In this document: piece after piece, positions 14,274 through 35,538 of the stretch
Layout: each line of letters opens with the position of its first letter
Position numbering within the stretch: the stretch's first letter is position 1
Source of the DNA: Terriglobia bacterium
GTDB lineage: Bacteria; Acidobacteriota; Terriglobia; Terriglobales; SCQP01
NCBI GenBank assembly: GCA_021323595.1
Contig: JAJPKR010000031.1
Location: forward strand, 13,599-77,598
Length of the DNA: 64,000 nucleotides
Reading direction: 5' to 3'
Program-made: the position numbers and the translations under genes
The notes under the pieces: model-generated
What the model saw: only the letters and a program-made list of their open reading frames with translations
What the model was told of the DNA's origin: nothing
Databases searched by the model: none

Positions 14274-14287
14274 CGCTTGCGCAAGCG
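14274..14287. promoter_or_regulatory. Perfect 14-bp palindrome CGCTTGCGCAAGCG; putative LacI-family operator in the ara/SSS divergent region
   Basis: Identical to the palindrome at 30448-30461 next to the LacI-family gene. Lies in the 345-bp divergent intergenic region between the GH51-ara operon and the SSS transporter. Confidence 0.6.
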
Positions 14288-16508: not shown

Positions 16509-18074
16509 CCCGGCGCGCGTCCACTCGCCGTCCACCAGCCGCCAAATGCCGAGCGGATTGGCGTCGCGCAATTCCTGCGGCAAGAGAAATTCCGGAGCGT
16601 CTTGGTAGCACACCGGCCGCGCGAAGCGAAAAATGGCGCGCGTGCCTACGGACGTCGCGCGGCTGTCGGACGTCGCCGGGTACGGGCCGCCATGCACGAT
16701 CGCATGCGAAACCTCGACCCCGGTGGGATAGCCATTGACGATCAGCCGGCCGGCTTTGGTTTCCAGCAGCGCGACCAGGCCGGCGTTGCGGCGCAGATCG
16801 GTCTCGGTGGCGTGCAGCGTGGCGGTGAGCTGGCCGGGAAGGCGCCGCGCAGCCTCCAGCGCCTCGCGCTCGTCGCCATAGCGGACGAGCAGCAATGCCG
16901 GTCCGAAGAGTTCTTCTTCGAGTTTCGGATTGGCGGCCAGGGTGGCGGAGGACACCTGAAACAGGGCGGTCGAGATCGGCGCGGCTGACTTGGCGAGAAG
17001 CTCGACGCCGGCGTGCCCAGCGCGCTCATCCACGCCCCGGCAGTAGGCTTCGGCGATCCCGCGGGTGAGCAGCGTAGCGGGCGGCGTGGTCTGAATCCGT
17101 TGCGCCAGCTCGCGCGTGAAGCTCGTCGCCGCCGTGCCGGCGCCGGGCAAAAAGACGAGTCCCGGTTTCGTGCAGAACTGTCCGGCGCCGAGCGTCGCCG
17201 ACGCGTGCAAGCCGGCGGCTAACGCCGCGCCGCGTTCGGCCAGCGCCTCGGGCAGCACGAAGACAGGATTGACGCTGCCCATCTCGGCAAAGACCGGAAT
17301 CGGCTCGGCGCGCGCCGCCGCCAGATCCATCAGCCGGCGGCCGGCGGCGAGCGAGCCGGTAAAGCCGACGGCGCGTATCGCGGGATGGCGCACCAGCGCG
17401 GCGCCGATTTCGACCCCGGAATCGAACAGCAGCGAAAATACCCCGTCTGGAGCGCCGGAGGCGCGTGCCGCCTCGAGGATCGCCTCGGCCGCCAGCTCGC
17501 TCGTTCCCGGATGAGCGGGATGCGCCTTGACGATGACAGGATTGCCGGCCGCCAGCGCCGAAGCGGTATCGCCTCCGGCGACGGAAAACGCCAAGGGGAA
17601 ATTGCTGGCGCCGAAGACTGCGACGGGTCCGAGCGGGCGCAAGCAGGAGCGCAAATCGGGCCGGCGCGGCTGATTCTCCTGCGCGGGATGCGAGCGATCG
17701 ATGCGCGCGTCCACCCAAGACCCTTCCTCGGCGAGCGCGGCGAAGAGGCGCAATTGATTGGCAGTGCGGCGGAGTTCGCCGCGCAAGCGCGGCTCGGGCA
17801 GCGCCGTTTCCTGGCCGGCGCGCGCGACCAGCGCATCGCCGCGCGCCTCGAGACGCTCGGCACAAGCGCGCAAGAAGGCGCCGCGAGCCGCGCCACTCGC
17901 GGCGCGGTATTCAGCCGCCGCGGCTTCCGCGAGCGCCGCCGCGCGCTCCACTTCGGAGTCCGTCGCCGATACGAAAGCGGGCTCGATCGCCACGCCTCGC
18001 GCGGGATCCCACGCCCGAAATCGCGTTCCCGACTCCGCGCCCAGGGTTTGGCCGATGCGCGAACGGCCGGTCAT
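16503..18074 (-). CDS. NAD(P)+ aldehyde dehydrogenase, alpha-ketoglutarate-semialdehyde dehydrogenase-like
   Basis: 523-aa ALDH-family protein (FTGSLAAGRRL, EMGSVNPVF, GQFCTKPG). Its N-terminal pattern and length resemble KGSADH. It abuts the DapA-family gene with no gap. Confidence 0.8.
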   Translation of the reverse strand: MTGRSRIGQTLGAESGTRFRAWDPARGVAIEPAFVSATDSEVERAAALAEAAAAEYRAASGAARGAFLRACAERLEARGDALVARAGQETALPEPRLRGELRRTANQLRLFAALAEEGSWVDARIDRSHPAQENQPRRPDLRSCLRPLGPVAVFGASNFPLAFSVAGGDTASALAAGNPVIVKAHPAHPGTSELAAEAILEAARASGAPDGVFSLLFDSGVEIGAALVRHPAIRAVGFTGSLAAGRRLMDLAAARAEPIPVFAEMGSVNPVFVLPEALAERGAALAAGLHASATLGAGQFCTKPGLVFLPGAGTAATSFTRELAQRIQTTPPATLLTRGIAEAYCRGVDERAGHAGVELLAKSAAPISTALFQVSSATLAANPKLEEELFGPALLLVRYGDEREALEAARRLPGQLTATLHATETDLRRNAGLVALLETKAGRLIVNGYPTGVEVSHAIVHGGPYPATSDSRATSVGTRAIFRFARPVCYQDAPEFLLPQELRDANPLGIWRLVDGEWTRAGL

Positions 18075-18992
18075 CTAGGCCCTCGCCATCCGCTGCGCCG
18101 CCATTACCGTGTCGCGCTGCTTCAGCGCTTGGCGGATGGTGCGGCGCGCGGCGTCGAGCTCTTCGCCGACCAAGCTCAGCCGCGGCGGACGAACGCGCGA
18201 ACTGCCCATGCCGGCTTCCTCCTGGATGAGCTTGATGAGCTGCACGAACTTCGGGAGCGTGTCCATGCGCAACAGCGGCAGCAGCCAGCGATACAACTCC
18301 CAAGCGCGCTCCCATTGCCCCTGGCGGCCGGCGTTCAAAAGCGCCACGGCCTCTTCCGGCATCGCGTCCGCCAGCCCGGAGACCCAGCCCACCGCCCCCA
18401 TGGCCACGCCCTCGAGCACGACATCGTCCACGCCCACGAAAATCGCCAAACGATCGCCGCACAGAGCGCGAATCGCGGTGACGCGGCGCGCATCGGTGCT
18501 TGACTCTTTCACCGCTTGCAGATTCGCATGCTCTTCTGCCAATTCGACGATGTGGGCGGGCAAGAAATCGGCGCCGTACGCGACAGGATTGTTGTACAGC
18601 ATCGACGGCAAGGGCGTGGCGCGCAAGACTGCGCTCACGTGCGCTTTCAGCTCGCGCCAATCGCCGGGATACACGTACGGCGGGAGAATCATCAGCCCGT
18701 CGCAGCCCTCCGCCTCGGCGGCTTTCGCCAAAGCGACCGCTTCGCGCGTGCCCAGCGCGGAAATCCCCGCCACCAGCGGCGCGCGCTCGAGCGCGCGCCG
18801 GCAGGTCTGCAAGATCCGCTTTTTTTCTTCGAACGAAAGCGTGGCGGCTTCGCCCAGCGACCCGAGAGCCACAACGCCGGTGCACCCGGCCTCGATCACT
18901 CGCCGGCAATGGTCGGCTACGAAGTTGTAATCTGGATCAAAGTGCACATCGAACGCGGTGGTAAGTGCGGGCCAGACGCCCTGCCAGTCCAT
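18075..18992 (-). CDS. DapA/NAL-family (dihydrodipicolinate-synthase-like) lyase/dehydratase
   Basis: Start ATG 18992 (MDWQGVWPALTTAF...). DHDPS-family motifs GVVALGSLGEAATLS and YNNPVAYG. The track ORF extends to 19217, but that part crosses the AT-rich divergent promoter. Confidence 0.85.
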   Translation of the reverse strand: MDWQGVWPALTTAFDVHFDPDYNFVADHCRRVIEAGCTGVVALGSLGEAATLSFEEKKRILQTCRRALERAPLVAGISALGTREAVALAKAAEAEGCDGLMILPPYVYPGDWRELKAHVSAVLRATPLPSMLYNNPVAYGADFLPAHIVELAEEHANLQAVKESSTDARRVTAIRALCGDRLAIFVGVDDVVLEGVAMGAVGWVSGLADAMPEEAVALLNAGRQGQWERAWELYRWLLPLLRMDTLPKFVQLIKLIQEEAGMGSSRVRPPRLSLVGEELDAARRTIRQALKQRDTVMAAQRMARA

Positions 18993-19041
18993 CAAAATGG
19001 TTCCTCCCAGGCACGGCAGAGGAATATTATATCCAGTATTC

Positions 19042-19287
19042 GTGTCGCGCACTATATCTATCCTTATTGATCGGCAAGTGGTGTCCGTGCCAGCGGGCAC
19101 GACCGTGGCAGCCGCGCTCATGGAGCGGGAATATGCGTGCCGGCGTTCCCGATCCGGCGAACTGCGCGGTCCGTTGTGCGGCATGGGGATCTGCTTCGAG
19201 TGCCGCGTCACCATCAACGGCCAGCCGCACCGGCGCAGCTGCCAGATTCTTTGCGAGGACGGAATGGCCGTCAGAACCGGAGACTAG
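19042..19287 (+). CDS. (2Fe-2S)-binding small subunit (HcnA / opine-oxidase / D-hydroxyproline-dehydrogenase gamma-like)
   Basis: 81 aa from GTG 19042. Motifs GELRGPLCGMGICFECRVTING and RSCQ are typical of the 2Fe-2S subunit family. Confidence 0.7.
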   Translation: MSRTISILIDRQVVSVPAGTTVAAALMEREYACRRSRSGELRGPLCGMGICFECRVTINGQPHRRSCQILCEDGMAVRTGD

Positions 19288-19310
19288 ACGGGTTCGCGGC
19301 GGATTCGGCA

Positions 19311-20630
19311 ATGAGCGCAGCACCTTGGGATTTGTTGGTCGTGGGTGGAGGACCGGCAGGACTGGCGGGTGCAGCCTGCGCGGCGGAAGCCGGGATGCGC
19401 GTGGCTTTGCTCGACGACAATCTGGCCCTTGGCGGCCAGATTTGGCGCGCGGAAGCCACCCGCGACGTCAACACCGCCGCGGCCAGGTGGATCCGGCGAG
19501 CGGCCACCGCCGGCGCCAAGATGGTGACTCGCGCGCGCGTTTTCGACGCGCCCGCCCCCGGGGTGCTGGCGGCTGAGATGAACGAAGGCGACGAAGAGCG
19601 CCGGATCGAGTTGCGCTACCGCCAATTGCTGGTGGCCACGGGCGCGCGCGAACGCTTTCTTCCCTTTCCCGGTTGGACCCTACGCAATGTGCTGGGCGCC
19701 GGCGGATTGCAAGCGATGGTCAAGTCCGGACTGCCGGTCGCCGGCAAACGCGTCGTGATCGCCGGCAGCGGCCCGCTGCTGGCGGCGGTCGCTGCATACC
19801 TGCGCCATCATGGCGCCGAGATTGCGCTGCTGTGCGAACAAGCGCCGGCCTCGCAGACCGCCGGACTCGCGCTAGCGCTGGCGAAATACCCCGGAAAATG
19901 GGCACCGGCGGCGGCGCTGGTCTGGCAACTCGCCGGCGTGCGGCGCGCGACGAACTGCTGGCCGATTGCGGCTGAAGGCGATGAGGTGCTGCGCGCCGTG
20001 CGCGTGCTGCGAAACGGCCGCGAAACGCGCATCGCCTGCGACTATCTCGCCTGCGGCTTTCATCTCGTCCCCAACCTCGAATTGCCGCTGCTGCTCGGGT
20101 GCCGGACCCGCGGCGGCTACATCGAAATCGACGAGGCGCAGCGCACATCCGTGGCAAACGTCTTTTGCGCCGGCGAGCCGACCGGGATCGCGGGCGTAGA
20201 CGCGGCGCTGATCGGCGGCCAGATCGCCGCGGCGGCTGCCGCCGGCCGGCCGATTTCGGCGCGCCAGAAGCGCGCGCGCCGCCGCTGGCATCGGTTTGGG
20301 ATGGCGCTCGACCGGGCTTGCGCGCTCCGTGCCGAGTTGCGCTTGCTGGCGGGCCCCGAGACCTTGGTTTGCCGCTGCGAGGACGTCGCCTATGCGCGCC
20401 TGGCCTCGTGCCGCGATTGGCGCGACGCGAAATTGCAGACGCGCTGCGGTATGGGTCCGTGCCAAGGCCGCGTCTGCGGCCCAGCGACGCGCTTTCTGTT
20501 CGGCTGGCAGGACGTCTCGATCCGTCCGCCGCTGTTTCCGGTCCCGGTCGCTTCGCTCGCCGCGGCCGCGACGCCGGACACCGGCGCCGAGCCGGCGTTC
20601 GAGGCGGTGGCCGGGAAAAACGATTCATAA
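19311..20630 (+). CDS. FAD/NAD(P)-binding pyridine-nucleotide-disulfide oxidoreductase with C-terminal BFD-like [2Fe-2S] motif (HcnB/OoxA-like)
   Basis: ATG 19311. Dinucleotide folds DLLVVGGGPAGLAGA and VVIAGSGPLLAAVA; C-terminal CRCEDV...RCGMGPCQGRVC. Confidence 0.8.
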   Translation: MSAAPWDLLVVGGGPAGLAGAACAAEAGMRVALLDDNLALGGQIWRAEATRDVNTAAARWIRRAATAGAKMVTRARVFDAPAPGVLAAEMNEGDEERRIELRYRQLLVATGARERFLPFPGWTLRNVLGAGGLQAMVKSGLPVAGKRVVIAGSGPLLAAVAAYLRHHGAEIALLCEQAPASQTAGLALALAKYPGKWAPAAALVWQLAGVRRATNCWPIAAEGDEVLRAVRVLRNGRETRIACDYLACGFHLVPNLELPLLLGCRTRGGYIEIDEAQRTSVANVFCAGEPTGIAGVDAALIGGQIAAAAAAGRPISARQKRARRRWHRFGMALDRACALRAELRLLAGPETLVCRCEDVAYARLASCRDWRDAKLQTRCGMGPCQGRVCGPATRFLFGWQDVSIRPPLFPVPVASLAAAATPDTGAEPAFEAVAGKNDS

Positions 20631-26591: not shown

Positions 26592-29500
26592 CTAGAAGGT
26601 GAAATTGGCGCGCAACTGCACCTGACGCTGACCGCTCGTGGGCGCTCCGATGTGCCCAAAGCCCGTGCTCAGGAGCGAGCCGTTCGGCGTGCCCCACACA
26701 GGGTGGTTCCAGACATTCAGGAACTCCCCTTGCAGTTCCATGTGCAGACGCTCGGTTAGGGAGACTGCTTTAGTGAGCGACAGGTCTTGGTAGAACTGCC
26801 GGGGCCCGTGCAACCAGGGAATGAACCCGAGAATCCCCGCCATAGTATTGGGCACCAAATAACTAGCGTTGGCGCGGCCGCCGCTGGCGATGAACTTCGG
26901 GTCGATGCCGGTCGCGTAGGTCTGGCCCGGAACCGGCTGGGCGTCTACCGAGCTTTGCAGCGCGGAGGTCGAAGCACCGGTCAAAGTGATACCACCGTTG
27001 CCGTAGTCGTTGAATGTGTGATAGGCGCCGGTAAGCCGGAAGGGTGCACCGGTTTGGTAGGTGACGAAAGTTCCCACGGTCCAATCGCCGAGAGCCTTCG
27101 CGGCCAAGCCGTTGTTGTTGAGCCAGGTCTTGCCCGTGCCAAACGGCAGATCATAGGTGCCGTAAGCGTGAATGACGTGGTTGTGGTCAAAGAGCGCGGG
27201 ACCGTAGCTGTTGCGCAGATTGCGCATCGTGTAGAGGTTAAAAGAGCCAGTCCAGGAATTATCCGGCTGGATCCCCAGCGTGTGACTCCACGTGTAGTTC
27301 ACGTCAAACTGCATGCCGTGCCACTGCTTTTGTCGGAAGTCCACTTGGAGACCGTTGTAGTTGCCCGATCCGGCATCGGTGGTGTAGCCGGCGGTGCCCG
27401 GCCCCAGGTACGGAGGACCTTCGGTGCCGGCGCCAAACGGATTCGCCTGGAAGAAGTTCATCGGGTAGGCGCCTGCCACCCCGGCTCCGACATAGGGGAC
27501 GCAGGGGGAGAAATTGGCGCTGCCCACGAGCGCGCAAAGGAAGTTCGGGTTGTTGGCGAGGTTGCCGGCGGCATCGCCAACCTGGCCGTTCTTCAGGTAG
27601 CGGACAAAGGTACCATCGGTCGGGCTGACTCCCGCAGTCGTCAGGATCGGGAGATTTACCTGGCCAGCATAGCCGTTGTTGGCGAAGGAGTTGTTGATGC
27701 CGTTGGCAGCGTTGATGGCGAGGTTGTTCTGCGCCGCCTTGAACTCGTTCAAGAATCCGTTTTCGAAGACGTTCACCTCATTCGGATTCAGCGAGACCCA
27801 TTGATGGATCGTGTGATTGGCGACGTATCGGACTTCAATGACGTTGCTCTGGCCTAATTGACGCTGAATCCCGAAGGTGAATGACTGCACGTACGGCTGC
27901 CGAATGTTGGGATTGATGCCGGTTGCGCCGTACGGGCTATTGCTGAACGTCAGCTCGGACATCGGGACTGTCGTCTGAAATGACGGCGGGGTCAGCGCGT
28001 AGGGCGGGAAAGGATCGCCCAACGCCAGGCTGCCGGGGGCGAAGGTTCCGGGCGCCCCGCCCGTGGCTTGGTTGAGATTGAAGCTCTGGTAATAGTTGAA
28101 GCCGCCATCGGTGGCGTCGTTCCAAAATAACTGGTTGGGTTCAGTGTAGTAGCGCAAAGAATAGCCGCCGCGAATGACCGTGCTCCGGCCGCCGAACAGC
28201 GAACCCAACCAGCCATTCTCCAGATCCGGGTTCCACGCGAATCCGAACGCCGGCTGCGGGCTCTTGTTCCAAGGGTTGTACTGATGCTCGCGCGTGGTGA
28301 GGACGGGATCGGCAACGCCGTTGAGGACACCCGGTTTGAAGAGATCGCCGACCGCCGTAGGACCGTAGATGTTGGCCAGGCTGGCGCTCGTGTAAGCGCT
28401 GGTAAGGTCGTGATCGTCACCCGTGAAGTCCCAGCGCAAACCGTAGTTCAGCGTCAGGCTGGGCGTGACATGGTAGGAATCCTCGAAGAACAAGCCCCAG
28501 CCCTTTTGGAGCTCGTCCAGAGGATACGCTCCCGGCCCGGTAAGGTACTGGTGGGTCTTGGGGTCGAGTGCGTGCTGGCCGTTGACGTCGCCGATGCGGC
28601 CCACCAGCGTCGCGTAGAGGGCGCCAGCCTCGTCGCTGACGGCGCTGGAGGAATTGGCAAACTGCGGCGCGTTCGCGAAGGTGCTCGCCGCGGGATCCTG
28701 GGGCCCGAGGTAGAGATCAATATTCGGATACCCCAGCGGAGCGTTCCAATAGTGGTCTTGTTCGCGGTAGAACGAGATGCCGAAGTTGAACAGGTGGGCG
28801 CCGCGCTCCCAGCTTAGGGTATTCGTGAAATTTACCACCGGGTAATAGGTTGAGATCGGGGTTGGGAAGGTCTGGCCGCCATCGCCCAGCGCGTAAAAGA
28901 TCTGCGGTTGGGTGAGATAAAGGGGCGCGGCGTCGTAGGCGTACCAGGTGGCATCGTAGAGGAAACCGCCACGGAATTGATTGATCAGCGTCGGGCTAAT
29001 TGTATAGTCCACCCCTAATCCGGTTGTGTAGTTGGTGGAACGATTGGAGGCCGACCGATTGGCGAAGTTGGCGCCAGGAAAGGGCGGCGCACTTGCGTTC
29101 GGATTGGAACTCGTCGTTTCCAGGTAGTTGAAATCTAACCTGAGATTGGAAGAGACGTTGTAGTCGAGGCGCAGCGATGGGTAATAGCTGGTAGTCGGCG
29201 CTGGATTCAGCCACGACACTTGCGAAAGGTTGGGGTCGCCCGTCGGCGTGACCGAACCGGCCTTGACGGCATCATTCACCGCTTGGAGTTGGCTCGCGAT
29301 TTGGGAGTTGACCGTCGAGGGCAGCCCGTTGGGCTGGGCAATGTCGGTCAGGACGTTGACCGTATGCACAACCCCGCTATTGTCAGTGAAGGTGTAATTG
29401 CCCGCCTGCGCCGCCGGCGTCAGAAACGTGTTCGAGGTGGTAAAGGAACTGGGTTCGCGCGAGGTCGCGAAGCTGCCGAAGAAGAATAGCTTGTTGTGCA

Positions 29501-30413
29501 GGATGGGGCCACCGAATGTGCCGCCAAAATCATTGAGGATCAGGGTATTGCGCTTCAGGGAGGCAGCGTTGTTGAACCAGCTGTTGGCGTTCAACCCGGA
29601 GTTGCGGAAATCCTCGTACGCGGAGCCATGGAAGGCGTTGCTCCCGCGCTTGGTGACGTAGTTGACCTGCATGTTGGATTGGCCGTTGCCCTGCGCCAAT
29701 CCCAACTGATCGGTCTGCACCGTCATCTCCTGCATGTCTTCCAGGCGGGCCTGGACCGCGGGCCGGGCATTGCCGGCGAACTTCATCCGGCTTGAACTGG
29801 AGACGACGCCGTTGATGTTGTTTCCTTGCGCCGCTTCCGGCAACCCGTTCCAAGTGCCGTTATATCCGGGCACGACTTGCGCGAGCTGGCTGACGTCTCG
29901 TCCGTTGAGCGGCAGATCGTTCACCTGCTTCAGGTCGATCGTCGTGCCGATGGTGTTGGTCGTGGTTTCGACGATGGGCACGGCGCTGCCGCTGACCACC
30001 ACTTCCGAGGTCACCGCCCCAACCTTCAATTGGGCGCGGACGTCGGTCACGCGCGCCTCCTGCACGATCACCGAACCGAAGACCTGCTTTTGAAAGCCTT
30101 GCTTGACGACCGTGAGCGAGTAGGTCGCCGCGGGCAGGCCGACGAAGGTGTAGGTGCCGGCCGATTGCGTCGTGCCGGTGCGCACGGTGCCGGTGCCCAG
30201 ATCGGTCAAGGTGAGAGTCGCGCCACTCACGACGGCGCCCGAGGTATCCGTCACTAACACGGTGACGCCGCCCTGGGTGCCGGTCTGCGCCGACAGCGTC
30301 AATGCCAGCAGCGCCACGGCGGCCAGAACCGACAGCATCACTGCACCGGCGCGCGCCAAACGGCGGATGCGGGTGCCCGAATGGAGGGGGAAGCGATATG
30401 ATGGGGTGGTCAC
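26592..30413 (-). CDS. TonB-dependent outer-membrane receptor with N-terminal carboxypeptidase-regulatory-like domain
   Basis: CarboxypepD_reg-like GVTVLVTDTSGAVVSGATLTLTDLGTGTVRTGTTQSAGTYTFVGLPAATYSLTV, then a very long beta-rich body and the terminal ...VQLRANFTF. Start set to GTG 30413 (AGGAGA 7 nt upstream). The track's TTG 30470 lies only ~9 nt downstream of the predicted TSS, upstream of the operator that fills the leader, and has no SD. Confidence 0.85.
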   Translation of the reverse strand: MTTPSYRFPLHSGTRIRRLARAGAVMLSVLAAVALLALTLSAQTGTQGGVTVLVTDTSGAVVSGATLTLTDLGTGTVRTGTTQSAGTYTFVGLPAATYSLTVVKQGFQKQVFGSVIVQEARVTDVRAQLKVGAVTSEVVVSGSAVPIVETTTNTIGTTIDLKQVNDLPLNGRDVSQLAQVVPGYNGTWNGLPEAAQGNNINGVVSSSSRMKFAGNARPAVQARLEDMQEMTVQTDQLGLAQGNGQSNMQVNYVTKRGSNAFHGSAYEDFRNSGLNANSWFNNAASLKRNTLILNDFGGTFGGPILHNKLFFFGSFATSREPSSFTTSNTFLTPAAQAGNYTFTDNSGVVHTVNVLTDIAQPNGLPSTVNSQIASQLQAVNDAVKAGSVTPTGDPNLSQVSWLNPAPTTSYYPSLRLDYNVSSNLRLDFNYLETTSSNPNASAPPFPGANFANRSASNRSTNYTTGLGVDYTISPTLINQFRGGFLYDATWYAYDAAPLYLTQPQIFYALGDGGQTFPTPISTYYPVVNFTNTLSWERGAHLFNFGISFYREQDHYWNAPLGYPNIDLYLGPQDPAASTFANAPQFANSSSAVSDEAGALYATLVGRIGDVNGQHALDPKTHQYLTGPGAYPLDELQKGWGLFFEDSYHVTPSLTLNYGLRWDFTGDDHDLTSAYTSASLANIYGPTAVGDLFKPGVLNGVADPVLTTREHQYNPWNKSPQPAFGFAWNPDLENGWLGSLFGGRSTVIRGGYSLRYYTEPNQLFWNDATDGGFNYYQSFNLNQATGGAPGTFAPGSLALGDPFPPYALTPPSFQTTVPMSELTFSNSPYGATGINPNIRQPYVQSFTFGIQRQLGQSNVIEVRYVANHTIHQWVSLNPNEVNVFENGFLNEFKAAQNNLAINAANGINNSFANNGYAGQVNLPILTTAGVSPTDGTFVRYLKNGQVGDAAGNLANNPNFLCALVGSANFSPCVPYVGAGVAGAYPMNFFQANPFGAGTEGPPYLGPGTAGYTTDAGSGNYNGLQVDFRQKQWHGMQFDVNYTWSHTLGIQPDNSWTGSFNLYTMRNLRNSYGPALFDHNHVIHAYGTYDLPFGTGKTWLNNNGLAAKALGDWTVGTFVTYQTGAPFRLTGAYHTFNDYGNGGITLTGASTSALQSSVDAQPVPGQTYATGIDPKFIASGGRANASYLVPNTMAGILGFIPWLHGPRQFYQDLSLTKAVSLTERLHMELQGEFLNVWNHPVWGTPNGSLLSTGFGHIGAPTSGQRQVQLRANFTF

Positions 30414-30447
30414 GGCGAATTCTCCTGCGCCTTGTCGCTCGAATAAA

Positions 30448-30461
30448 CGCTTGCGCAAGCG
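30448..30461. promoter_or_regulatory. Perfect 14-bp palindrome CGCTTGCGCAAGCG; putative LacI-family operator in the TonB-receptor leader
   Basis: Lies between the predicted -10 (30486-30491) and GTG 30413. A further half-site GCGCAAGCGATT is at 30465-30476. Identical to 14274-14287. Confidence 0.6.
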
Positions 30462-30485
30462 GAGGCGCAAGCGATTTCCTCGGAT

Positions 30486-30513: not shown

Positions 30514-30561
30514 GGGTTTTTTGTAGTTTTTTTGCCCTAGGCGTGGCGCAAAAATTCGCCC

Positions 30562-30589
30562 TTGACCTGCGGTCCGGCGGGACTAGAAT
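30562..30589 (+). promoter_or_regulatory. Sigma70-like promoter of the LacI-family gene / GH operon
   Basis: TTGACC (30562-30567), 16-nt spacer, TAGAAT (30584-30589). Confidence 0.5.
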
Positions 30590-30591
30590 GA

Positions 30592-30605
30592 CGTTTGCGC
30601 AAGCG
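30592..30605. promoter_or_regulatory. Near-palindromic operator CGTTTGCGCAAGCG overlapping the predicted lacI-family transcription start (autoregulation)
   Basis: One mismatch from the 14-bp palindrome. Begins 3 nt after the -10 hexamer. Confidence 0.5.
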
Positions 30606-30626
30606 ATTGCGCCGAGCCGCCCGTTC

Positions 30627-31643
30627 ATGATCCGCATGCGAGATGTCGCTCTCCGCGCCGGCGTCAGCGCCAGCACGGTGTCGCACGTGCTCAACGGCAC
30701 GCGCTTCGTCGAGCCGGCCACCGGCGAGCGCGTGCGCCGCGCGATCGAGGAACTGGGCTACCATCCCAGCCGCGCCGCGCGCGCGCTGGTCCGCGGCGCC
30801 AGCGACTTGCTGGGCCTGATCATCAGCGACATCACCAACCCCTTCTTCCCGGAATTGGTCAAGGTCTTCGAAGCCGCCGCGCTGGGCATGGGCTGCGAGA
30901 TTACGCTGGCCAACACCAACTACGATCCCAAGCGCACGGTGGCCTGCGTCGAGCGCATGCTGGCGGAGCGGGTTCGCGGCGTGGCGGTGATGACCTCGGA
31001 GATGGACGAAATGCTGATCGAGCGGCTGCGGCGGGCGCAGGTGCCGGTCGTCTATTTCGAGCGGGGCGAAGCCGACGCGTTCGCTTCGAACATCGTGGTG
31101 GACTATCAATCGGGCATTCGCGCGGCAGTCGAGCACCTCTGGGATTTGGGGCACCGCCGCCTGGGCTTCATCAGCGCCCCGCCGACGCTGCGCTCGACGC
31201 GGCAGCGGCGCGAGGTCTTCGAGCGGTCGCTGGCGCGGCTGGGAGGGCGGGCGCGGGTGGAGATCGGCGATATGCGGCAATCGGGCGGCCACGAGGCGGC
31301 GCGGCGCCTGCTCGCCGGCGCGGAACCGGTGACCGCCATCATGGCGTCCAACGATCTGATGGCCTTCGGCGCCCTGCAAGCGATCAACGGCGCCGGCCTG
31401 CGCGTGCCGGAGGAGGTTTCGCTGATCGGCTTCGACAACGTGATGTTTTCCGCCCTCACCCAGCCGCCGCTGACAACGGTCGAGTTATCGCGGCAACAAT
31501 TGGGTGAGCTGGCGGTGCAGGCGCTGCGCAACATCGCCGCGGCGCCCAGCCACCAAGGGCAGCAGTACAAGCTGCGGACGCGCTTGATCGTCCGCGAGTC
31601 CACCGCCGTGCCGGCGCGCCGGGCGCGCCGGGCCAGCTCCTAG
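30627..31643 (+). CDS. LacI-family transcriptional regulator
   Basis: HTH MRDVALRAGVSASTVSHVLNG at the N-terminus (ATG 30627), followed by a periplasmic-binding-protein-like sugar-binding domain. Confidence 0.9.
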   Translation: MIRMRDVALRAGVSASTVSHVLNGTRFVEPATGERVRRAIEELGYHPSRAARALVRGASDLLGLIISDITNPFFPELVKVFEAAALGMGCEITLANTNYDPKRTVACVERMLAERVRGVAVMTSEMDEMLIERLRRAQVPVVYFERGEADAFASNIVVDYQSGIRAAVEHLWDLGHRRLGFISAPPTLRSTRQRREVFERSLARLGGRARVEIGDMRQSGGHEAARRLLAGAEPVTAIMASNDLMAFGALQAINGAGLRVPEEVSLIGFDNVMFSALTQPPLTTVELSRQQLGELAVQALRNIAAAPSHQGQQYKLRTRLIVRESTAVPARRARRASS

Positions 31644-31686: not shown

Positions 31687-33621
31687 ATGTCCCACGCCAA
31701 TCGCCGCCAGTTCCTTGCCACTCTTGCCGCCGGCGCCGCCGCCGTGCCGCTGGTCAAGACCCGGGTCTTCGGCCAAGACCCGGTTATGGACGCCGCCGCC
31801 GCCCATCGCGCCAACTACAAGGAGGCCGTCGCCTGGCGCGCGCAACCCTTCCCCATGGGACGGGTGCGGCTGGCACCGGGGGTGTTCCAGAAGAACATGG
31901 AGGCCAACCGCGAATACTTGCTGACGCTGCCCACCGACCGCCTGGCCCATATGTTCCGGGTCACCGCCGGCCTGCCCTCCTCGGCGCAGCCCTTCGGCGG
32001 CTGGGAAGCGCCGGACGTCGAGTTGCGCGGCCATTTCACCGGCGGGCACTATCTTTCCGCCTGCGCGCTGCAATATGCCGGCGCCGGCGACGACGAGGTC
32101 AAGCAGCGCGGCGAAGCGCTGGTGGCGGCGCTCGCCGAATGCCAAGCCAAGCATCCCGACGGGTATCTCAGCGCCTTTCCCGAAACCTTTTTCGACCGCC
32201 TGCGCGACGGCCAGCCGGTGTGGGCGCCCTTCTACACCATTCACAAGATCATGGCCGGGCACCTCGACATGTATGTCCACTGCGGCACGCAACAGGCGCT
32301 CGACACCTGCGAGAAGATGGCCGGCTGGGTGGCGCATTGGATCGAGCCGCTCAGCGACGCCCACGTGCAGCGGGTGCTCGAGACCGAATACGGAGGCATG
32401 GGCGAGGTGCTCTACAATCTCGCCGCCGTCACCGGCAAACGCCAATACATCTATCTCGGCCATCGCTTCGACAAGCGCGCCTTCTTCGATCCGCTCTTGG
32501 CGCATCGCGACGAACTCAAAGGCCTGCACGCCAACACGCATATCCCCCAAGTGATCGGCGCCGCCCGCGCCTACGAGCTGACCGGCAATCATGATTCGCG
32601 GCAGATCGCCGAGTATTTCTGGCGCGAGGTCGTGAGCGAGCGCACCTATTGCACCGGCGGCACCAGCAACGACGAGCACTGGGAAGGCGATCCCGGCCAC
32701 CTGCGCATCGGTCCCGCGAGCGAGGAGTGCTGCTGCGGCTACAACATGCTCAAGCTCACCCGCCATGTCTACGGCTGGTCGGGCGATCCGCGCATGATGG
32801 ACTACTACGAACGCACGCTTTTCAATAGCCGGCTGGGCACCCAGGAAACGCACGGGCTGAAGATGTATTACCTGCCGCTGGCCGCGGGATATTGGAAGAC
32901 GTTCAACACGCCGTTCAACTCGTTCTGGTGCTGCACCGGCACCGGCGCGGAAGAGTTCGCCAAATTCGCCGACACCATTTACTTCCACGACGATGACGGC
33001 CTCTACGTGAACTTGTTCCTCGCCTCCGATCTCGACTGGCCGGAAAAGGGGCTGCGGTTGCGGCAGCGGACGAACTTCCCCGACGAGCAGGGCACGACGC
33101 TGACGATCCGCGCCGAGCGGCCGACCCAGCTCGACATCAATCTGCGCATTCCTTACTGGGTAGCCGACGGCGGCGCGGTCAAGGTCAACGGCGAAACCCT
33201 GCCGGCGTTCGCCAGCCCGGGCAGCTATCTCACGCTGCGGCGGGCCTGGCATGACGGCGACCGTATCGAGCTGAAGCTGCCGATGGCGGCGCATGTGGAG
33301 TCGTTGCCGGGCGACGAGACCTTGCAGGCGTACATGTATGGCCCGATCGTTTTGGCCGGACAGATGGGCGACGAAGGCTTGACGGAGAAAATGATCTTCG
33401 GCGGCTACGGCCCGCGCGCGCGGCCGACGCCGCCGCCCGAGATCGCCGGCACGGAGGCCTTGGCGGCGCTCAAGCCGGGCAGCGGCGGGCCGTTCGATTT
33501 CCAGCTCTTCACCGCGGGGCACGGGCCGATGGCGATGATGCCGCTCAACCAGACCTTCAACCAGCGCTACGCCGTGTATTTCAAGCTGAACCGGCCCACG
33601 TTCTTCGGCCGCCGCGCCTGA
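31687..33621 (+). CDS. GH127 (DUF1680) beta-L-arabinofuranosidase-like glycoside hydrolase, Tat signal
   Basis: Tat RRQFLATLAAGAAAV. DUF1680-type segments GHFTGGHYLSA, WAPFYTIHKIMAG, EYGGMGEVLYNL and the Cys motif FWCCTGTGAEEF. AGGAGGG lies upstream of ATG 31687. Confidence 0.85.
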   Translation: MSHANRRQFLATLAAGAAAVPLVKTRVFGQDPVMDAAAAHRANYKEAVAWRAQPFPMGRVRLAPGVFQKNMEANREYLLTLPTDRLAHMFRVTAGLPSSAQPFGGWEAPDVELRGHFTGGHYLSACALQYAGAGDDEVKQRGEALVAALAECQAKHPDGYLSAFPETFFDRLRDGQPVWAPFYTIHKIMAGHLDMYVHCGTQQALDTCEKMAGWVAHWIEPLSDAHVQRVLETEYGGMGEVLYNLAAVTGKRQYIYLGHRFDKRAFFDPLLAHRDELKGLHANTHIPQVIGAARAYELTGNHDSRQIAEYFWREVVSERTYCTGGTSNDEHWEGDPGHLRIGPASEECCCGYNMLKLTRHVYGWSGDPRMMDYYERTLFNSRLGTQETHGLKMYYLPLAAGYWKTFNTPFNSFWCCTGTGAEEFAKFADTIYFHDDDGLYVNLFLASDLDWPEKGLRLRQRTNFPDEQGTTLTIRAERPTQLDINLRIPYWVADGGAVKVNGETLPAFASPGSYLTLRRAWHDGDRIELKLPMAAHVESLPGDETLQAYMYGPIVLAGQMGDEGLTEKMIFGGYGPRARPTPPPEIAGTEALAALKPGSGGPFDFQLFTAGHGPMAMMPLNQTFNQRYAVYFKLNRPTFFGRRA

Positions 33622-33741
33622 AGATCCGGTCGCCGCAGCCGACCCGGACGATGGGAGCCTGGCGCGCACGCCCGCGACGAGCGGCGCGCCGCAGCTCGCG
33701 ATTGCGCGGTGTGCGCGCCGCCGAGCCAAAAGGAGAGCGGG

Positions 33742-35538
33742 ATGGAGGAGTTGACCAGACGCGATTTGCTGAAGGCAGCGGCGGCGACCGGCGCCGGCGC
33801 ATGGTTGGAGGCCGCGACGCCGGCCGCGGCGCGGACGCTCCAAGCCGGGGCGGGCGCGCAGATCGTGCCGCTCAACTCGACCAGCGACGTCTATATTCCG
33901 CCGCGCGGCCGCTCGTTCCTGAAATTCAGCTTCGACTTTCCGGAGCCATCGGTCCGCTTCGCCGATCTGCTGTTTTCGTTTCGGCTCTACACCTTCGAGA
34001 ATGTTTACGCGCTCGATCCCACGGCGATGGAGTGGAGCGATCACGGCGACCGCGGCGAGTTGGCGTGCCGCCGCCTGACTTGGGCGGGCGGGCAGGCGCC
34101 GGCGGCGGGGCGGCTGGAGGCGCATTTTCAGCGCACCGCAAACGGCGTCGAGTGGCGAGCCGAGGCGCGCATGGAGGGCTCGCGGCTGGCGCTGAAGGCG
34201 ATCTCCGCGATCGTGCGCGGCGTGCCGCGGGGGAAGATTTCGCCGGGCGGCGGCGGCTTCTTCGAGCCGCGCAACAACGAACTGCTGTTCGGCTATCCGT
34301 TCGGCGGCGACTCGCTATTCTTGGCCGGCGGCATGAATACGCCACTGGTCGTGATCGAAACGCCCGCGGGCGGCTACTTCGCGCTGGGCGCGCGCGATCA
34401 GGGCGTGCATGCCCATCGGTTTTACTTGCAGCCCGGCGACCAGGGCTATCGCGCCGAGCTGACCTACGAATCCGCGGGATGGCGGCGCAGCGCCGCGATC
34501 GCCTCGCCCGCGTGGCGCGCCGAGCGGGCGACGACGCTCGACGCCGCCTTCCGCCCGCACTTCGCCCACGTCGAGCAGGCGTTCGGCCTGCCCGATTGGG
34601 AGACGCGCGGGGACGTTCCCGACTGGCTGCGCCGCACGGCGCTGGTGATCGCGCTGCACGGCATGCATTGGACGGGGTATATCTTCAACGACTTCGCGCG
34701 CATGCGCCGCATCTTGGAATGGGTGGCGACGCAGATTCCCGGCGATCGCGTTCTCGTCTTCCTGCCCGCCTGGGATGGACGTTATTACTGGAATTATCCG
34801 CTCTACGAGCCCGACCCGCGGCTGGGCGGCGCCGCCGGGTTCAAGACGCTGATTGCCGCCGGCCACCGCCTGGGATTCCACTTCATGCCGATGTTCGGCT
34901 CCGACGCCGCCAACGACCATCTGCCCACGCGCGAGCGCCTGGCCGATGCACGCACGGTGCTAACCGACGGCGATCCCTTTCGCTTGAACTGGGTGGACTG
35001 GGACAACGACCGCCGCAACGAGGGCTGGTCGCCGTTCATGAACCTGGGCGTAGCCAGTTGGCGCGAATGGCTGACCGGGCGCATCGCCGCCACGGTGGCC
35101 GATTACGATGCCGACGCTTACTTTCTCGACATCGCCGGCGGCTGGGTGAACAACACGCAGGGAGACATGTTCGAAGGCGAACGGCAATTGGTCGCCGAGC
35201 TGCGCCGCCGCTTTCCACACGTTCTCGCGTGCGGCGAAATGTCTTACGATGCGCTGCTCGGCTCGATTCCGCTATTTCAGGTTTTCTCGGAACGCGGCTA
35301 CCCAGCGGCGTTCAAGAAGTATGCCCGCGCCTTCCAGCACTTGAGCCATCCCGCGCCCGGCCGCGGCAGCAGCGGCGTACACGAGTCCGGCTTTGGCCGG
35401 TTCAACCCCGCGACGCTCGATCTCGATCCCGAGGAGATCCCGACTATCACCGTGGTGGACGACACGTTCGATAACCACCGCGACATCATGGCCGCGATTA
35501 TTGTTGCCGCCAAGAAGCGCGCCGGCATCGCCAGTTGA
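33742..35538 (+). CDS. Tat-exported hypothetical protein, possibly a TIM-barrel glycoside hydrolase of unrecognised family
   Basis: AAGGAG upstream of ATG 33742; Tat signal RRDLLKAAAATGAGAWL. The C-terminal half alternates beta/alpha-like segments with acidic motifs (AYFLDIAGGW, LACGEMSYD). I recognise no named family. Confidence 0.6.
   Translation: MEELTRRDLLKAAAATGAGAWLEAATPAAARTLQAGAGAQIVPLNSTSDVYIPPRGRSFLKFSFDFPEPSVRFADLLFSFRLYTFENVYALDPTAMEWSDHGDRGELACRRLTWAGGQAPAAGRLEAHFQRTANGVEWRAEARMEGSRLALKAISAIVRGVPRGKISPGGGGFFEPRNNELLFGYPFGGDSLFLAGGMNTPLVVIETPAGGYFALGARDQGVHAHRFYLQPGDQGYRAELTYESAGWRRSAAIASPAWRAERATTLDAAFRPHFAHVEQAFGLPDWETRGDVPDWLRRTALVIALHGMHWTGYIFNDFARMRRILEWVATQIPGDRVLVFLPAWDGRYYWNYPLYEPDPRLGGAAGFKTLIAAGHRLGFHFMPMFGSDAANDHLPTRERLADARTVLTDGDPFRLNWVDWDNDRRNEGWSPFMNLGVASWREWLTGRIAATVADYDADAYFLDIAGGWVNNTQGDMFEGERQLVAELRRRFPHVLACGEMSYDALLGSIPLFQVFSERGYPAAFKKYARAFQHLSHPAPGRGSSGVHESGFGRFNPATLDLDPEEIPTITVVDDTFDNHRDIMAAIIVAAKKRAGIAS

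What the first reader, a model, noticed from the sequence alone, without database searches (positions are those of the whole stretch)
33742..35538. 598-aa Tat-exported protein of unrecognised family between GH127 and GH31: candidate new glycoside hydrolase
Strong SD (AAGGAG) and a clear twin-arginine signal. The N-terminal half is beta-rich. The C-terminal half alternates beta/alpha segments with conserved-looking acidic residues at strand ends (AYFLDIAGGW, LACGEMSYD, VDWDNDRRNEGW), as in TIM-barrel glycosidases. I cannot assign it to a named CAZy or Pfam family by eye. Its position in a glycan-utilisation operon makes a carbohydrate-active role likely.
Basis: partly seen in the sequence, partly recalled or inferred. 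Interest (0 to 1): 0.55.

Follow-up and report, generated by a model that had tools for sequence, protein, structure and literature searches.

The report
Unnamed periplasmic glycosidase beside arabinofuranosidase
This gene encodes an exported two-domain enzyme from a large, uncharacterised family of probable sugar-cleaving enzymes; soil Acidobacteria keep it next to a beta-L-arabinofuranosidase and to L-arabinose and hydroxyproline breakdown genes, which makes it a good candidate for a new glycoside hydrolase family acting on plant hydroxyproline-rich glycoproteins.

Summary
The ORF is real: 33742-35538, 598 aa, AAGGAG 6 nt upstream and a TRRDLLK twin-arginine leader. It is conserved in at least 437 species genomes, almost all Acidobacteriota.

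P0001 matches no Pfam, NCBIfam or PDB sequence. Its distant homologues pass the threshold of Pfam DUF6259, for which I found no paper. The AlphaFold model (pLDDT 92.4) shows an N-terminal beta-sandwich plus a (beta/alpha)8 barrel. The best two-domain matches are GH129 (NagBb Z 23.2, DagB Z 22.0). The barrel alone matches GH13.

A family profile aligns the invariant Asp463 with the GH13 nucleophile and Glu499 with the GH13 acid/base.

Across 160 related loci the gene recurs in three settings:
- beside a GH127/GH146 beta-L-arabinofuranosidase;
- at the head of an L-arabinose catabolic operon;
- next to the complete 4-hydroxyproline pathway.

In this window a 14-bp palindrome links its operon to the ara operon.

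Best reading: a periplasmic retaining glycosidase of a new family that trims 1,2-cis sugars from imported extensin or arabinogalactan-protein fragments. These sugars are most likely beta-L-arabinosyl. The substrate is inferred, not shown.

This scan had already noted the family on other DNA.

The parts
33730..33735 (+). Shine-Dalgarno AAGGAG, 6 nt before the ATG
   Evidence: read directly
33742..35538 (+). ORF of the 598-aa protein (P0001), stop codon included
   Evidence: conserved in 437 species genomes
33742..33834 (+). Twin-arginine signal peptide region (residues 1-31; RR at 33757-33762); the cleavage site is not determined
   Evidence: TRRDLLK motif; TAT_signal E 3e-4 and TIGR01409, both just under cut-off; pLDDT below 50 for residues 1-38
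33859..34536 (+). N-terminal all-beta sandwich domain (about residues 40-265). It includes the conserved Y185-P186 loop, inferred to reach the active site
   Evidence: DSSP on the model; aligned with the N-domains of GH129, GH36 and GH101; P186 conserved 98% and Y185 86% in A2
34624..35535 (+). (beta/alpha)8 catalytic barrel (about residues 295-598) with a long beta3-alpha3 insertion (387-437)
   Evidence: VIA Z 20-22.6 to GH13 barrels; profile match to GH13, E 7.8e-11
34996..35010 (+). D419-W-D-N-D423 motif in the beta3-alpha3 insertion. It is a candidate metal/sugar-binding loop (inference only)
   Evidence: D419 96%, W420 86%, D421 80% in A2; the analogy with the Ca2+ and Trp platform of NagBb (PMC8106489) was not tested
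35128..35130 (+). Asp463 codon: predicted catalytic nucleophile at the end of beta4
   Evidence: invariant in 56 of 56 diverse homologues; aligned with the GH13 region II nucleophile Asp
35236..35238 (+). Glu499 codon: predicted general acid/base at the end of beta5
   Evidence: 95% conserved; aligned with the GH13 region III Glu. PDB mutant chains 1j0j and 1gvi carry Q and L at that column
31687..33621 (+). Upstream operon partner: Tat-type GH127/GH146 beta-L-arabinofuranosidase (GH146-like). It is the only PF07944 gene in the genome
35586..37916 (+). Downstream operon partner: GH31 glycosidase with an RR leader
30543..31643 (+). LacI-family repressor, first gene of the operon. The true start is probably downstream of the promoter at 30562-30589
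26592..30470 (-). Divergent TonB-dependent-receptor-like outer-membrane barrel (CarboxypepD_reg + OMP_b-brl_4); presumed importer
   Evidence: recurs near the gene in 22 of 74 loci
30448..30461 (.). Perfect 14-bp palindrome CGCTTGCGCAAGCG just downstream of the -10 of the minus-strand promoter; candidate LacI operator
30592..30605 (.). Second copy of the palindrome (1 mismatch) just downstream of the -10 of the plus-strand promoter
14274..14287 (.). Identical palindrome in the divergent GH51 | SSF-transporter intergenic region of the L-arabinose operon
7669..14199 (-). L-arabinose utilisation operon: GH51 alpha-L-arabinofuranosidase (12568-14199), FGGY kinase (10814-12568), class II aldolase/AraD-like (10149-10889), Fucose_iso_C isomerase (8703-10127), DUF4380 mutarotase-like protein (7669-8727)
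16503..20630 (.). Aldehyde dehydrogenase (16503-18074, -), DHDPS-family protein (18075-19217, -) and Pyr_redox_2 flavoprotein (19137-20630, +). These families sit with DAO and proline racemase next to the gene in other genomes, where together they form the 4-hydroxyproline pathway

Best explanation
P0001 is a Tat-exported periplasmic glycoside hydrolase of an uncharacterised family. The family is an outlying clade of Pfam DUF6259, and its fold is closest to GH129.

It most likely works by the double-displacement (retaining) mechanism of its structural relatives. Asp463 at the end of barrel strand 4 would be the nucleophile and Glu499 at the end of strand 5 the acid/base. A loop of the N-terminal sandwich (Y185-P186) and the beta3-alpha3 insertion (DWDND, 419-423) would help shape the sugar pocket.

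Its job is to trim a 1,2-cis-linked sugar from fragments of plant hydroxyproline-rich glycoproteins or arabinose-rich glycans. I commit to beta-linked L-arabinose as that sugar. The leading case is the beta-1,2-arabinofuranosyl units of Hyp-arabinosides, where it would stand in for the taxonomically narrow GH121 arabinobiosidase. Beta-L-arabinopyranosyl caps are the next option.

Proposed pathway: the fragments enter through the divergent TonB-dependent receptor. P0001 acts alongside the adjacent GH146-like beta-L-arabinofuranosidase and the GH31. The released L-arabinose and hydroxyproline feed the nearby catabolic pathways. A LacI-type repressor appears to control the whole system together with the ara operon.

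Shown here: the gene, its conservation, the fold, the conserved Asp/Glu pair and its alignment to GH13 catalytic residues, the genomic associations and the shared palindrome. Inferred: catalysis, retention of configuration, export, substrate and regulation.
For: Fold: pLDDT 92.4, beta-sandwich plus (beta/alpha)8 barrel.

Two-domain structural matches: GH129 NagBb Z 23.2 (475 aligned, rmsd 3.6), DagB Z 22.0, GH36 FpGalNase Z 20.4, GH101 Z 20.2. Foldseek E 3e-19 to GH129, GH36 and GH31.

Catalytic pair: the A2 profile hits GH13 maltogenic amylase and neopullulanase at E 8e-11 and 2e-10. Family D463 sits on the region II nucleophile and E499 on the region III acid/base, where the 1j0j and 1gvi mutant chains differ. 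D463 is 100% and E499 95% conserved.

Family links: 27 of 56 homologues hit DUF6259, and others hit GHL10, GH66, DUF5696 and GH114. Six homologues pass the DUF6259 cut-off.

Context in 74 genome loci:
- GH127/146 within 8 kb in 25 loci, directly adjacent in 19.
- Aldose epimerase directly downstream in 15 loci, heading SSF - isomerase - FGGY - AraD - GH51.
- ALDH-DHDPS-Pyr_redox_2-DAO-proline racemase plus GntR beside it in 5-7 loci.

In metagenome loci GH127/146 lies nearby in 34 of 80, and still at 44-46% identity. On the protein tree, GH127 adjacency needs at least 7 state changes and ara adjacency at least 6.

The window itself has the ara operon, Hyp-type genes, and the exact palindrome at 14274 and 30448. 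All three operon enzymes have RR leaders. The genome has one copy of this gene and one PF07944 gene, and they are adjacent.

Literature: GH146 enzymes cleave Araf-beta-Hyp (PMC10850190). GH121 is almost confined to bifidobacteria and Xanthomonas (10.1101/2020.03.26.009860). GH127 and a GH129-like enzyme share one substrate in one locus in Zobellia (PMC5698469).
Against: No member of the family has been assayed, and I found no paper on DUF6259.

P0001 itself hits no glycosidase model. The catalytic assignment rests on a profile alignment over strands 3-5 only. A third catalytic acid was not identified.

Every characterised structural relative acts on pyranosides (alpha-Glc, alpha-Gal, alpha-GalNAc, 3,6-anhydro-alpha-Gal). 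None acts on a furanoside, which weakens the beta-L-arabinofuranoside version.

About 30 of the 80 genome loci, including a large Acidiferrales clade, show no informative neighbours.

ALDH plus DHDPS alone could also belong to a non-phosphorylative L-arabinose route. Proline racemase is on another contig in this genome.

The Tat profile scores are just under their cut-offs.
Confidence: 0.6

Rival explanations
1. It is an alpha-D-galactosidase that removes the single alpha-galactose from serine in the Ser-Hyp4 repeats of extensin, or Gal-alpha-1,3-Araf caps of AGP. It would work as GH129 NagBb and GH101 do on GalNAc-alpha-Ser/Thr.
For: The best structural match is NagBb, which hydrolyses GalNAc-alpha-Ser/Thr (PMC8106489). 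GH36, GH27 and GH31 alpha-galactosidases are also close. The ESM Atlas names one sister cluster 'alpha-galactosidase family protein' automatically. Extensin fragments that feed a Hyp pathway would also carry Gal-Ser (general knowledge). An aldose 1-epimerase lies directly downstream in 15 loci.
Against: No galactose (Leloir) genes are seen next to the gene. The epimerase is part of a typical arabinose operon. A GH27 closest to plant-type alpha-galactosidases (E 9e-100), or a GH31, often sits in the same loci. GH27 and GH31 never occur together, which suggests that this role is already filled. The K-x-D nucleophile motif of GH27/GH36 is absent (the sequence is FLD).
Confidence: 0.15
2. It is a glycosidase for another plant or microbial glycan, for example an alpha-glucan, alpha-xyloside or dextran-like linkage, or a transglycosylase. 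Its arabinose and Hyp neighbours would reflect a general plant-litter locus rather than its own substrate.
For: Profile similarity is to GH13, GH66 and GHL10. The GH31 neighbour is closest to alpha-xylosidases and alpha-glucosidases. More distant clades sit with GH95, GH116 and PfkB, or with an ABC transporter, GH43 and FGGY. A large clade has no arabinose context.
Against: The most frequent direct neighbours are a beta-L-arabinofuranosidase and the arabinose operon, in several independent arrangements. The GH13 signature residues beyond the Asp/Glu pair are missing. No member hits Pfam Alpha-amylase.
Confidence: 0.17
3. It is not an enzyme. It would be a periplasmic carbohydrate-binding or scaffold protein that kept a glycosidase fold.
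For: P0001 hits no catalytic family model directly. A third catalytic acid was not identified.
Against: The nucleophile-position Asp is invariant and the acid/base-position Glu is 95% conserved across homologues down to 22% identity, along with many pocket-type residues: R289, D291, H306, W344, R347, Y348, D419, N470 and R529. Pseudo-enzymes usually lose these residues.
Confidence: 0.05

Closest known systems
Pfam DUF6259 (PF19773), uncharacterised, TIM-barrel glycosidase-like
   Same: Homologues found by phmmer from P0001 pass the DUF6259 gathering score: P0152 (E 7e-75), P0204, P0209, P0218, P0221 and P0266 score 32-56 bits against a cut-off of 28.7. 27 of 56 family members hit it. The ESM Atlas structural neighbours are DUF6259 clusters with TM 0.73-0.83.
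   Different: P0001 and its close Acidobacterial relatives do not hit the model even at E 10; one relative, P0076, scores 27.9 bits, just under the cut-off. Searching the genome with the model finds nothing. No function is known for DUF6259 (no paper found).
GH129: NagBb alpha-N-acetylgalactosaminidase (5WZN) and DagB/ZgGH129 3,6-anhydro-D-galactosidase (5OPQ)
   Same: Same two-domain layout of N-terminal beta-sandwich plus (beta/alpha)8 barrel, and the best whole-protein structural matches (Z 23.2 and 22.0 over 475-477 residues). An Asp on strand 4 is followed about 31-43 residues later by a Glu (D435/E478 in NagBb, D486/E517 in DagB; PMC5698469), against D463/E499 here. DagB also sits in one locus with GH127 enzymes.
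   Different: Sequence identity is 9-12%. There is no hit to Pfam Glyco_hydro_129, and only weak DUF5696 hits in 6 of 56 relatives. This protein ends with the barrel and has no C-terminal Ig-like domain. The substrates and habitats differ (mucin or carrageenan versus soil plant litter).
GH13 / clan GH-H alpha-amylase superfamily
   Same: It is the only solved family with a significant sequence-profile match (E 8e-11), covering strands 3-5 with the nucleophile Asp and acid/base Glu in register. Barrel Z is 20-22.6. There is an insertion between beta3 and alpha3 where GH13 has domain B.
   Different: The Arg two residues before the nucleophile is missing (FLD, not RxD). The region I His and the region IV His-Asp are missing or not aligned. 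There is no Pfam Alpha-amylase hit. It has an N-terminal sandwich of the GH129/GH36 type.
Clan GH-D (GH27, GH31, GH36) alpha-galactosidases and alpha-glucosidases
   Same: N-terminal sandwich plus barrel, retaining enzymes for 1,2-cis pyranosides. GH27 includes beta-L-arabinopyranosidases. Foldseek E 5e-19 to 1e-15.
   Different: TM-scores are lower (0.46-0.53). Those families place the acid/base on strand 6 and have K-x-D or W-x-D nucleophile motifs that are absent here. There are no Pfam hits.
GH121 HypBA2 beta-L-arabinobiosidase (functional analogue only)
   Same: It would fill the same step of Hyp-arabinoside breakdown next to a GH127/146 enzyme (PMC6085000; 10.1101/2020.03.26.009860).
   Different: The fold is unrelated (an (alpha/alpha)6 barrel). 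The equivalence is purely a hypothesis from gene context.

Membership tests
Pfam DUF6259 (PF19773) | Score at or above the gathering cut-off (28.7 bits) for the protein itself | tested here: not met
   P0001 has no hit even at E 10. Searching the genome with the model finds nothing.
Pfam DUF6259 (PF19773) | Homology to bona fide members (transitive) | tested here: met
   phmmer from P0001 finds P0152 (E 7e-75), P0209 (8e-38), P0218, P0221 and P0266. Each of these passes the DUF6259 cut-off at 32.7-56.3 bits.
GH129 | Sequence membership (Pfam Glyco_hydro_129 / DUF5696) | tested here: not met
   No PF11308 hit for P0001 or any of the 56 relatives. DUF5696 is hit only weakly (E 3e-4 or worse) in 6 of 56.
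GH129 | Beta-sandwich plus (beta/alpha)8 architecture with an Asp on strand 4 and a downstream Glu | tested here: met
   VIA Z 23.2 and 22.0 over both domains. D463 and E499 are conserved. Residue-level superposition on NagBb or DagB could not be done because no coordinates were available.
GH13 (clan GH-H) | Catalytic Asp (region II) and Glu (region III) in register | tested here: met
   hmmsearch alignment to 1sma, 1j0h, 1j0j and 1gvi.
GH13 (clan GH-H) | Conserved regions I, II (Arg-x-Asp) and IV (His-Asp) and a Pfam Alpha-amylase hit | tested here: not met
   The sequence reads F-L-D463, not R-x-D. The region I His column is Ala389 in P0001 in the alignment. Region IV is not covered by any alignment. 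PF00128 is absent.
Clan GH-D (GH27/GH36/GH31) | Pfam Melibiase / Melibiase_2 / Glyco_hydro_31 hit and a K-x-D or W-x-D-M nucleophile motif | tested here: not met
   No such hits. The motif is absent from the sequence. The fold resemblance is weaker than to GH129.
Tat-exported proteins | S/T-R-R-x-F-L-K motif followed by a hydrophobic stretch; profile over the cut-off | tested here: inconclusive
   T-R-R-D-L-L-K plus an Ala/Gly-rich h-region is present. TAT_signal scores 20.9 vs 22.7 bits and TIGR01409 16.3 vs 16.7 bits. Five A2 members hit TAT_signal. Export was not tested.
Glycoside hydrolase (functional class) | Demonstrated hydrolysis of a glycosidic bond | not testable with these tools
   Needs an enzyme assay.

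The most novel reading that the evidence does not exclude
The family is a new glycoside hydrolase family whose members cleave beta-L-arabinofuranosyl linkages of Hyp-linked arabino-oligosaccharides. This would be the step done by GH121 in bifidobacteria and Xanthomonas, or the sugar-hydroxyproline bond itself. It would use an Asp/Glu retaining mechanism on a GH129/GH13-type TIM barrel. That would be the first furanosidase in this structural superfamily and the missing enzyme of extensin turnover in soil Acidobacteria.
Probability: 0.3. Interest if true: 0.75.

Novelty: new variant of a known kind. Interest (0 to 1): 0.58.

Why it matters
Hydroxyproline-rich glycoproteins (extensins, arabinogalactan proteins) are a sizeable nitrogen-containing part of plant cell walls. 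Their microbial breakdown has been worked out only in bifidobacteria, Bacteroides and Xanthomonas.

The known beta-arabinobiosidase family, GH121, is almost confined to two of those groups (10.1101/2020.03.26.009860). It is therefore open how abundant soil bacteria deglycosylate these proteins.

This family occurs in at least 437 species genomes, mostly Terriglobia from soils and peat. It is wired to a beta-L-arabinofuranosidase, to L-arabinose catabolism and to the full hydroxyproline pathway. That makes it a concrete, cheap-to-test candidate for a new CAZy family and for a missing step in soil carbon and nitrogen cycling. It would also give a first function to the DUF6259 superfamily.

Tried and rejected
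- Direct family assignment of P0001 gave only the sub-threshold Tat signal in Pfam at E 10 and NCBIfam at E 1. The PDB sequence search gave one meaningless hit at E 2.1.
- Literature searches for DUF6259, DUF5696, DUF5695, PF19773 and PF18952 found nothing relevant. A search for 'new glycoside hydrolase family' with 'arabinopyranosidase' gave nothing matching.
Context was obtained through the search for related loci instead.
- The search for related loci with the diverse alignment A2 failed because no stretch was conserved enough. It worked with A1 and A3.
- A search for longer fused forms found none, which is weak evidence.
- I tried to reach a distinct cytoplasmic clade through the metagenome scan. 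Most loci returned were the same Acidobacterial clade. The few distant ones gave mixed glycosidase contexts: GH95, GH116, and an ABC transporter with GH43 and FGGY.
- Residue-level superposition on NagBb or DagB, inspection of pocket shape and any docking were not possible, because model coordinates are not exposed to scripts.
- I could not test whether GH121 is absent from this genome, having no GH121 model accession or sequence by reference.
- Rejected readings: a GH13 member (signature regions missing), a GH129 member by sequence, a clan GH-D member, and a phage or mobile-element origin (no sign of either).
Full report
**1. Observation**

The ORF at 33742-35538 (+) is open for 598 codons and ends in TGA. 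AAGGAG lies at 33730-33735, 6 nt before the ATG. The N-terminus MEELTRRDLLKAAAATGAGAW carries a textbook T-R-R-x-L-L-K motif. The Pfam TAT_signal profile (20.9 vs 22.7 bits) and TIGR01409 (16.3 vs 16.7 bits) score just under their cut-offs.

The window is 66% G+C and the ORF has 84% GC3. The long overlapping ORFs in other frames are artefacts of that composition.

The protein is conserved. More than 1648 clusters score E<=1e-3 in the word-indexed search, with the top hits at 55-86% identity. The exhaustive search of 50% representatives gives 516 hits. 437 species-level genomes encode a relative. Nearly all named sources are Acidobacteriota (Terriglobia, 'Acidoferrum', 'Acidiferrales'), with a few Gemmatimonadota and one Eisenbacteria MAG. 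Where the sources give a name at all, almost all say 'hypothetical protein'.

**2. What the protein is**

P0001 itself hits nothing but the Tat signal in Pfam (even at E 10) and NCBIfam, and nothing meaningful among PDB sequences. I scanned 56 diverse homologues (alignment A2, down to 22% identity). Of these, 27 hit Pfam DUF6259 (best E 3.6e-15), 14 GHL10, 10 GH66, 6 DUF5696, 5 GHL6 and 3 GH114. All of these are TIM-barrel glycosidase-type families.

Six homologues that phmmer finds directly from P0001 (for example P0152 at E 7e-75 and P0209 at E 8e-38) pass the DUF6259 gathering score. The window protein therefore belongs to a divergent clade at the edge of DUF6259 that the current model does not capture. 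No paper in the library mentions DUF6259, DUF5696 or their accessions.

AlphaFold2 on A2 gives a confident model (mean pLDDT 92.4, pTM 0.90; only residues 1-38 are disordered). It has an all-beta sandwich (about 70-263) followed by a (beta/alpha)8 barrel (about 300-595), with a long insertion between strand 3 and helix 3.

- Foldseek against the PDB returns only glycosidases at the top: GH129 DagB (E 2.8e-19), GH36 alpha-galactosidases, GH31 sulfoquinovosidases and GH129 NagBb (TM 0.60-0.62).
- The Foldseek-independent VIA search ranks NagBb first (Z 23.2, 475 residues, rmsd 3.6). Next over both domains are DagB (Z 22.0, 477 residues), the GH36 FpGalNase (Z 20.4) and GH101 EngBF (Z 20.2). GH13 amylases match the barrel alone at Z 20-22.6.
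- The ESM Atlas neighbours are DUF6259, DUF5696/GH129 and Melibiase clusters.

**3. Catalytic residues**

In A2 the only invariant side chain is Asp463. Asp419 (96%), Glu499 (95%), Asn470 (95%), Arg289 (95%), Trp295 (98%), Asp291 (91%), His306 (89%) and Pro186 (98%) are nearly invariant.

A profile of A2 searched against PDB sequences hits GH13 maltogenic amylase and neopullulanase at E 7.8e-11 and 1.8e-10 over strands 3-5. The family column 'vDavFLDia' lies on GH13 region II ('DIDGWRLDVA'). The column 'vaGEgwyDa' lies on region III ('YILGEIWHD'). The deposited mutant chains 1j0j and 1gvi carry Q and L exactly at the Glu column, which marks it as the residue those studies targeted.

By established knowledge of GH13, these are the nucleophile Asp and the acid/base Glu. 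In the model, D463 ends strand 4 (459-463) and E499 ends strand 5 (495-499). NagBb (D435/E478) and DagB (D486/E517) have the same Asp-then-Glu order and similar spacing (PMC5698469).

I therefore predict a retaining double-displacement mechanism with D463 and E499. A third acid could be E548 (82% conserved) or D573/D574, but I could not assign it. The DWDND loop (419-423) in the beta3-alpha3 insertion looks like a metal or sugar-stacking element, as in NagBb (Ca2+ plus a Trp platform, PMC8106489). That is a guess only.

Every characterised relative cleaves a 1,2-cis (alpha-D-type) glycoside with retention. Beta-L-arabinosides are also 1,2-cis.

**4. Context in the window**

LacI (30543-31643), the GH127-domain gene (31687-33621), P0001 and GH31 (35586-37916) follow each other on the + strand with gaps of 43, 120 and 47 bp. 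There are no convincing terminators between them. All three enzymes begin with RR motifs.

The 'GH127' gene is much closer to GH146 BT0349 (E 2.6e-100) and Bll3HypBA1 (E 7e-60) than to GH127 structures (E 4e-22). GH146 enzymes include XeHypBA1 and Bll4HypBA1, which cleave Araf-beta-Hyp (PMC10850190). A TonB-dependent-type outer-membrane barrel is transcribed divergently.

Two sigma-70-like promoters face away from each other at 30513-30486 (-) and 30562-30589 (+). Each is followed directly by the palindrome CGCTTGCGCAAGCG: exact at 30448, one mismatch at 30592. A third, exact copy lies at 14274 between the GH51 gene and an SSF transporter.

That region holds a full L-arabinose operon on the minus strand: GH51, FGGY kinase, class II aldolase, a Fucose_iso_C-type isomerase and a mutarotase-like protein. 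Between the two loci lie an aldehyde dehydrogenase, a DHDPS-family gene and a Pyr_redox_2 flavoprotein.

The genome (3.55 Mb, 97.6% complete) has one copy of P0001 and one PF07944 gene, and they are adjacent. A proline racemase gene is on another contig.

**5. Context elsewhere**

In 80 loci from different species genomes I clustered the neighbouring ORFs and named the clusters with Pfam. In 74 of these loci the gene's ORF was recognised. Three recurrent settings appear.

- (i) GH127/146 lies within 8 kb in 25 of 74 loci and is directly adjacent in 19. It often comes with GH31 downstream (12 loci), a TonB-type receptor (22) and FG-GAP/ASPIC proteins (19). In five loci an amino-acid permease lies within the 8-kb flank.
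- (ii) The gene heads an arabinose operon: gene - aldose 1-epimerase - (GH27) - SSF transporter - isomerase - FGGY kinase - AraD-like aldolase - GH51. The epimerase is directly downstream in 15 loci, and at least two ara genes are present in 17.
- (iii) The gene abuts a GntR-regulated ALDH - DHDPS - Pyr_redox_2 - DAO - proline racemase cluster. This is the complete trans-4-hydroxy-L-proline pathway by established knowledge. ALDH and DHDPS occur together in L013, L023, L031, L061 and L070. L065 and L076 carry DHDPS plus GntR.

GH31 and GH27 never occur in the same locus. In 80 metagenome loci, GH127/146 is again near the gene in 34. This includes two loci where the protein is only 44-46% identical to P0001 and the GH127-like gene only 33-36% identical to the query GH127/146 representative.

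On a maximum-likelihood tree of the protein, GH127 adjacency needs at least 7 state changes and ara adjacency at least 6, so the links are not one inherited arrangement. A large 'Acidiferrales' clade has the gene alone among unrelated genes. More distant, leaderless homologues sit with GH95, GH116 and PfkB, or with an ABC transporter, a GH43-like gene and an FGGY kinase.

**6. Mechanistic reading**

The simplest model is as follows. Glycopeptides or oligosaccharides from hydroxyproline-rich glycoproteins cross the outer membrane through the receptor. In the periplasm the GH146-like enzyme, P0001 and GH31 (or GH27 in other species) remove the sugars. L-arabinose and hydroxyproline are then taken up and catabolised. 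A LacI-type repressor ties the locus to the ara operon.

In the known pathway, GH43 HypAA removes the alpha-1,3 cap, GH121 HypBA2 releases beta-Ara2 from Ara3-Hyp, and GH127/146 HypBA1 cleaves beta-Ara2 and Ara-Hyp (PMC6085000). GH121 is almost restricted to bifidobacteria and Xanthomonas, while GH127/146 are widespread (10.1101/2020.03.26.009860). A non-homologous enzyme for the beta-1,2 units is therefore expected in other degraders, and P0001 is the obvious candidate.

The Zobellia carrageenan locus offers a precedent. There GH127 enzymes and the GH129-like DagB act on the same sugar (PMC5698469). Against this reading, no relative of this fold is a furanosidase. Beta-L-arabinopyranosyl caps are the stereochemical analogue of alpha-D-galactose and are handled by GH27 enzymes, so they are a serious alternative. 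So is alpha-galactose on Ser or on Araf.

My estimates:
- glycosidase or transglycosidase: about 0.85;
- releases L-arabinose: about 0.55-0.6;
- beta-L-Araf specifically: about 0.3;
- beta-L-Arap: about 0.25;
- alpha-D-Gal: about 0.15.

**7. Comparison and novelty**

The protein works like a GH129 or GH13-type retaining alpha-glycosidase, but it fails the sequence membership tests of GH129, GH13 and clan GH-D. It is linked to DUF6259 only through intermediate sequences. It is best described as a candidate new glycoside hydrolase family within a known fold class.

Earlier notes of this scan had already flagged the same family next to GH127 on other genomes, and one follow-up reached a similar verdict. 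This report adds:
- the alignment of D463 and E499 to GH13 catalytic residues;
- the transitive DUF6259 membership;
- the GH146 identity of the neighbour;
- the adjacency statistics and the tree;
- the full Hyp-pathway linkage;
- the shared operator.

**8. Limits**

Model coordinates could not be inspected, so pocket shape and residue superposition on NagBb or DagB are untested. GH121 absence was not tested.

Noticed in passing
window 14274-14287, 30448-30461, 30592-30605: A perfect 14-bp palindrome, CGCTTGCGCAAGCG, occurs twice exactly and once with 1 mismatch. Two copies sit just downstream of the -10 boxes of the divergent TonB-receptor and LacI-operon promoters, and one sits in the GH51 | SSF intergenic region. 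It is a likely LacI-family operator joining this locus and the ara operon in one regulon. The annotated GTG start of LacI at 30543 lies upstream of the promoter, so the real start is probably later.
   Followed up: partly
window 31687-33621: The 'GH127' neighbour is GH146-like by PDB similarity: BT0349 (5opj) E 2.6e-100, against E 4e-22 for GH127 4qjy. It is the only PF07944 gene in the genome.
   Followed up: yes
window 16503-20630; loci L013, L023, L031, L061, L070: ALDH, DHDPS-family and Pyr_redox_2 genes lie between the ara operon and this locus. In other genomes the same families, together with DAO, proline racemase and a GntR regulator, form a complete 4-hydroxyproline pathway directly beside the gene. 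In the window alone, ALDH plus DHDPS could instead be a non-phosphorylative arabinose route.
   Followed up: partly
L066:6077-8014, also L071, L074, L076: A conserved 646-aa protein with no Pfam hit lies directly upstream of the gene in four genomes. It is another unassigned candidate glycan-active protein.
   Followed up: no
L066:11964-14777, also L063, L074, L076: A roughly 940-aa DUF5695 protein (E 2e-88) recurs in four of these loci (directly upstream of the gene in L063). In three of them (L066, L074, L076) it lies next to a GH127-like gene (24-29% identical to the window's).
   Followed up: no
window 21552-23504, 24760-26541, 20099-21778, 23559-24551: Two FG-GAP/ASPIC (UnbV) proteins and two TPR proteins flank the TonB-type receptor. 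The FG-GAP/ASPIC, TPR and receptor trio recurs near the gene in about 20 of 80 genome loci. Its role is unknown.
   Followed up: no
genome loci L002-L081 and metagenome loci L084-L163: GH31 and GH27 genes near the family member are mutually exclusive; no locus has both. This suggests that they fill the same role. The GH27 is closest to plant-type alpha-galactosidases (6f4c, E 9e-100).
   Followed up: partly
L084, L086, L093, L096: Leaderless homologues 36-47% identical to P0001 sit with GH95 and GH116 (L084), with GH95, a PfkB kinase and a beta-helix protein (L086), with a solute-binding protein (L093), or with an ABC-transporter permease, a GH43-like gene and an FGGY kinase (L096). These are probably cytoplasmic versions with other specificities.
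   Followed up: partly
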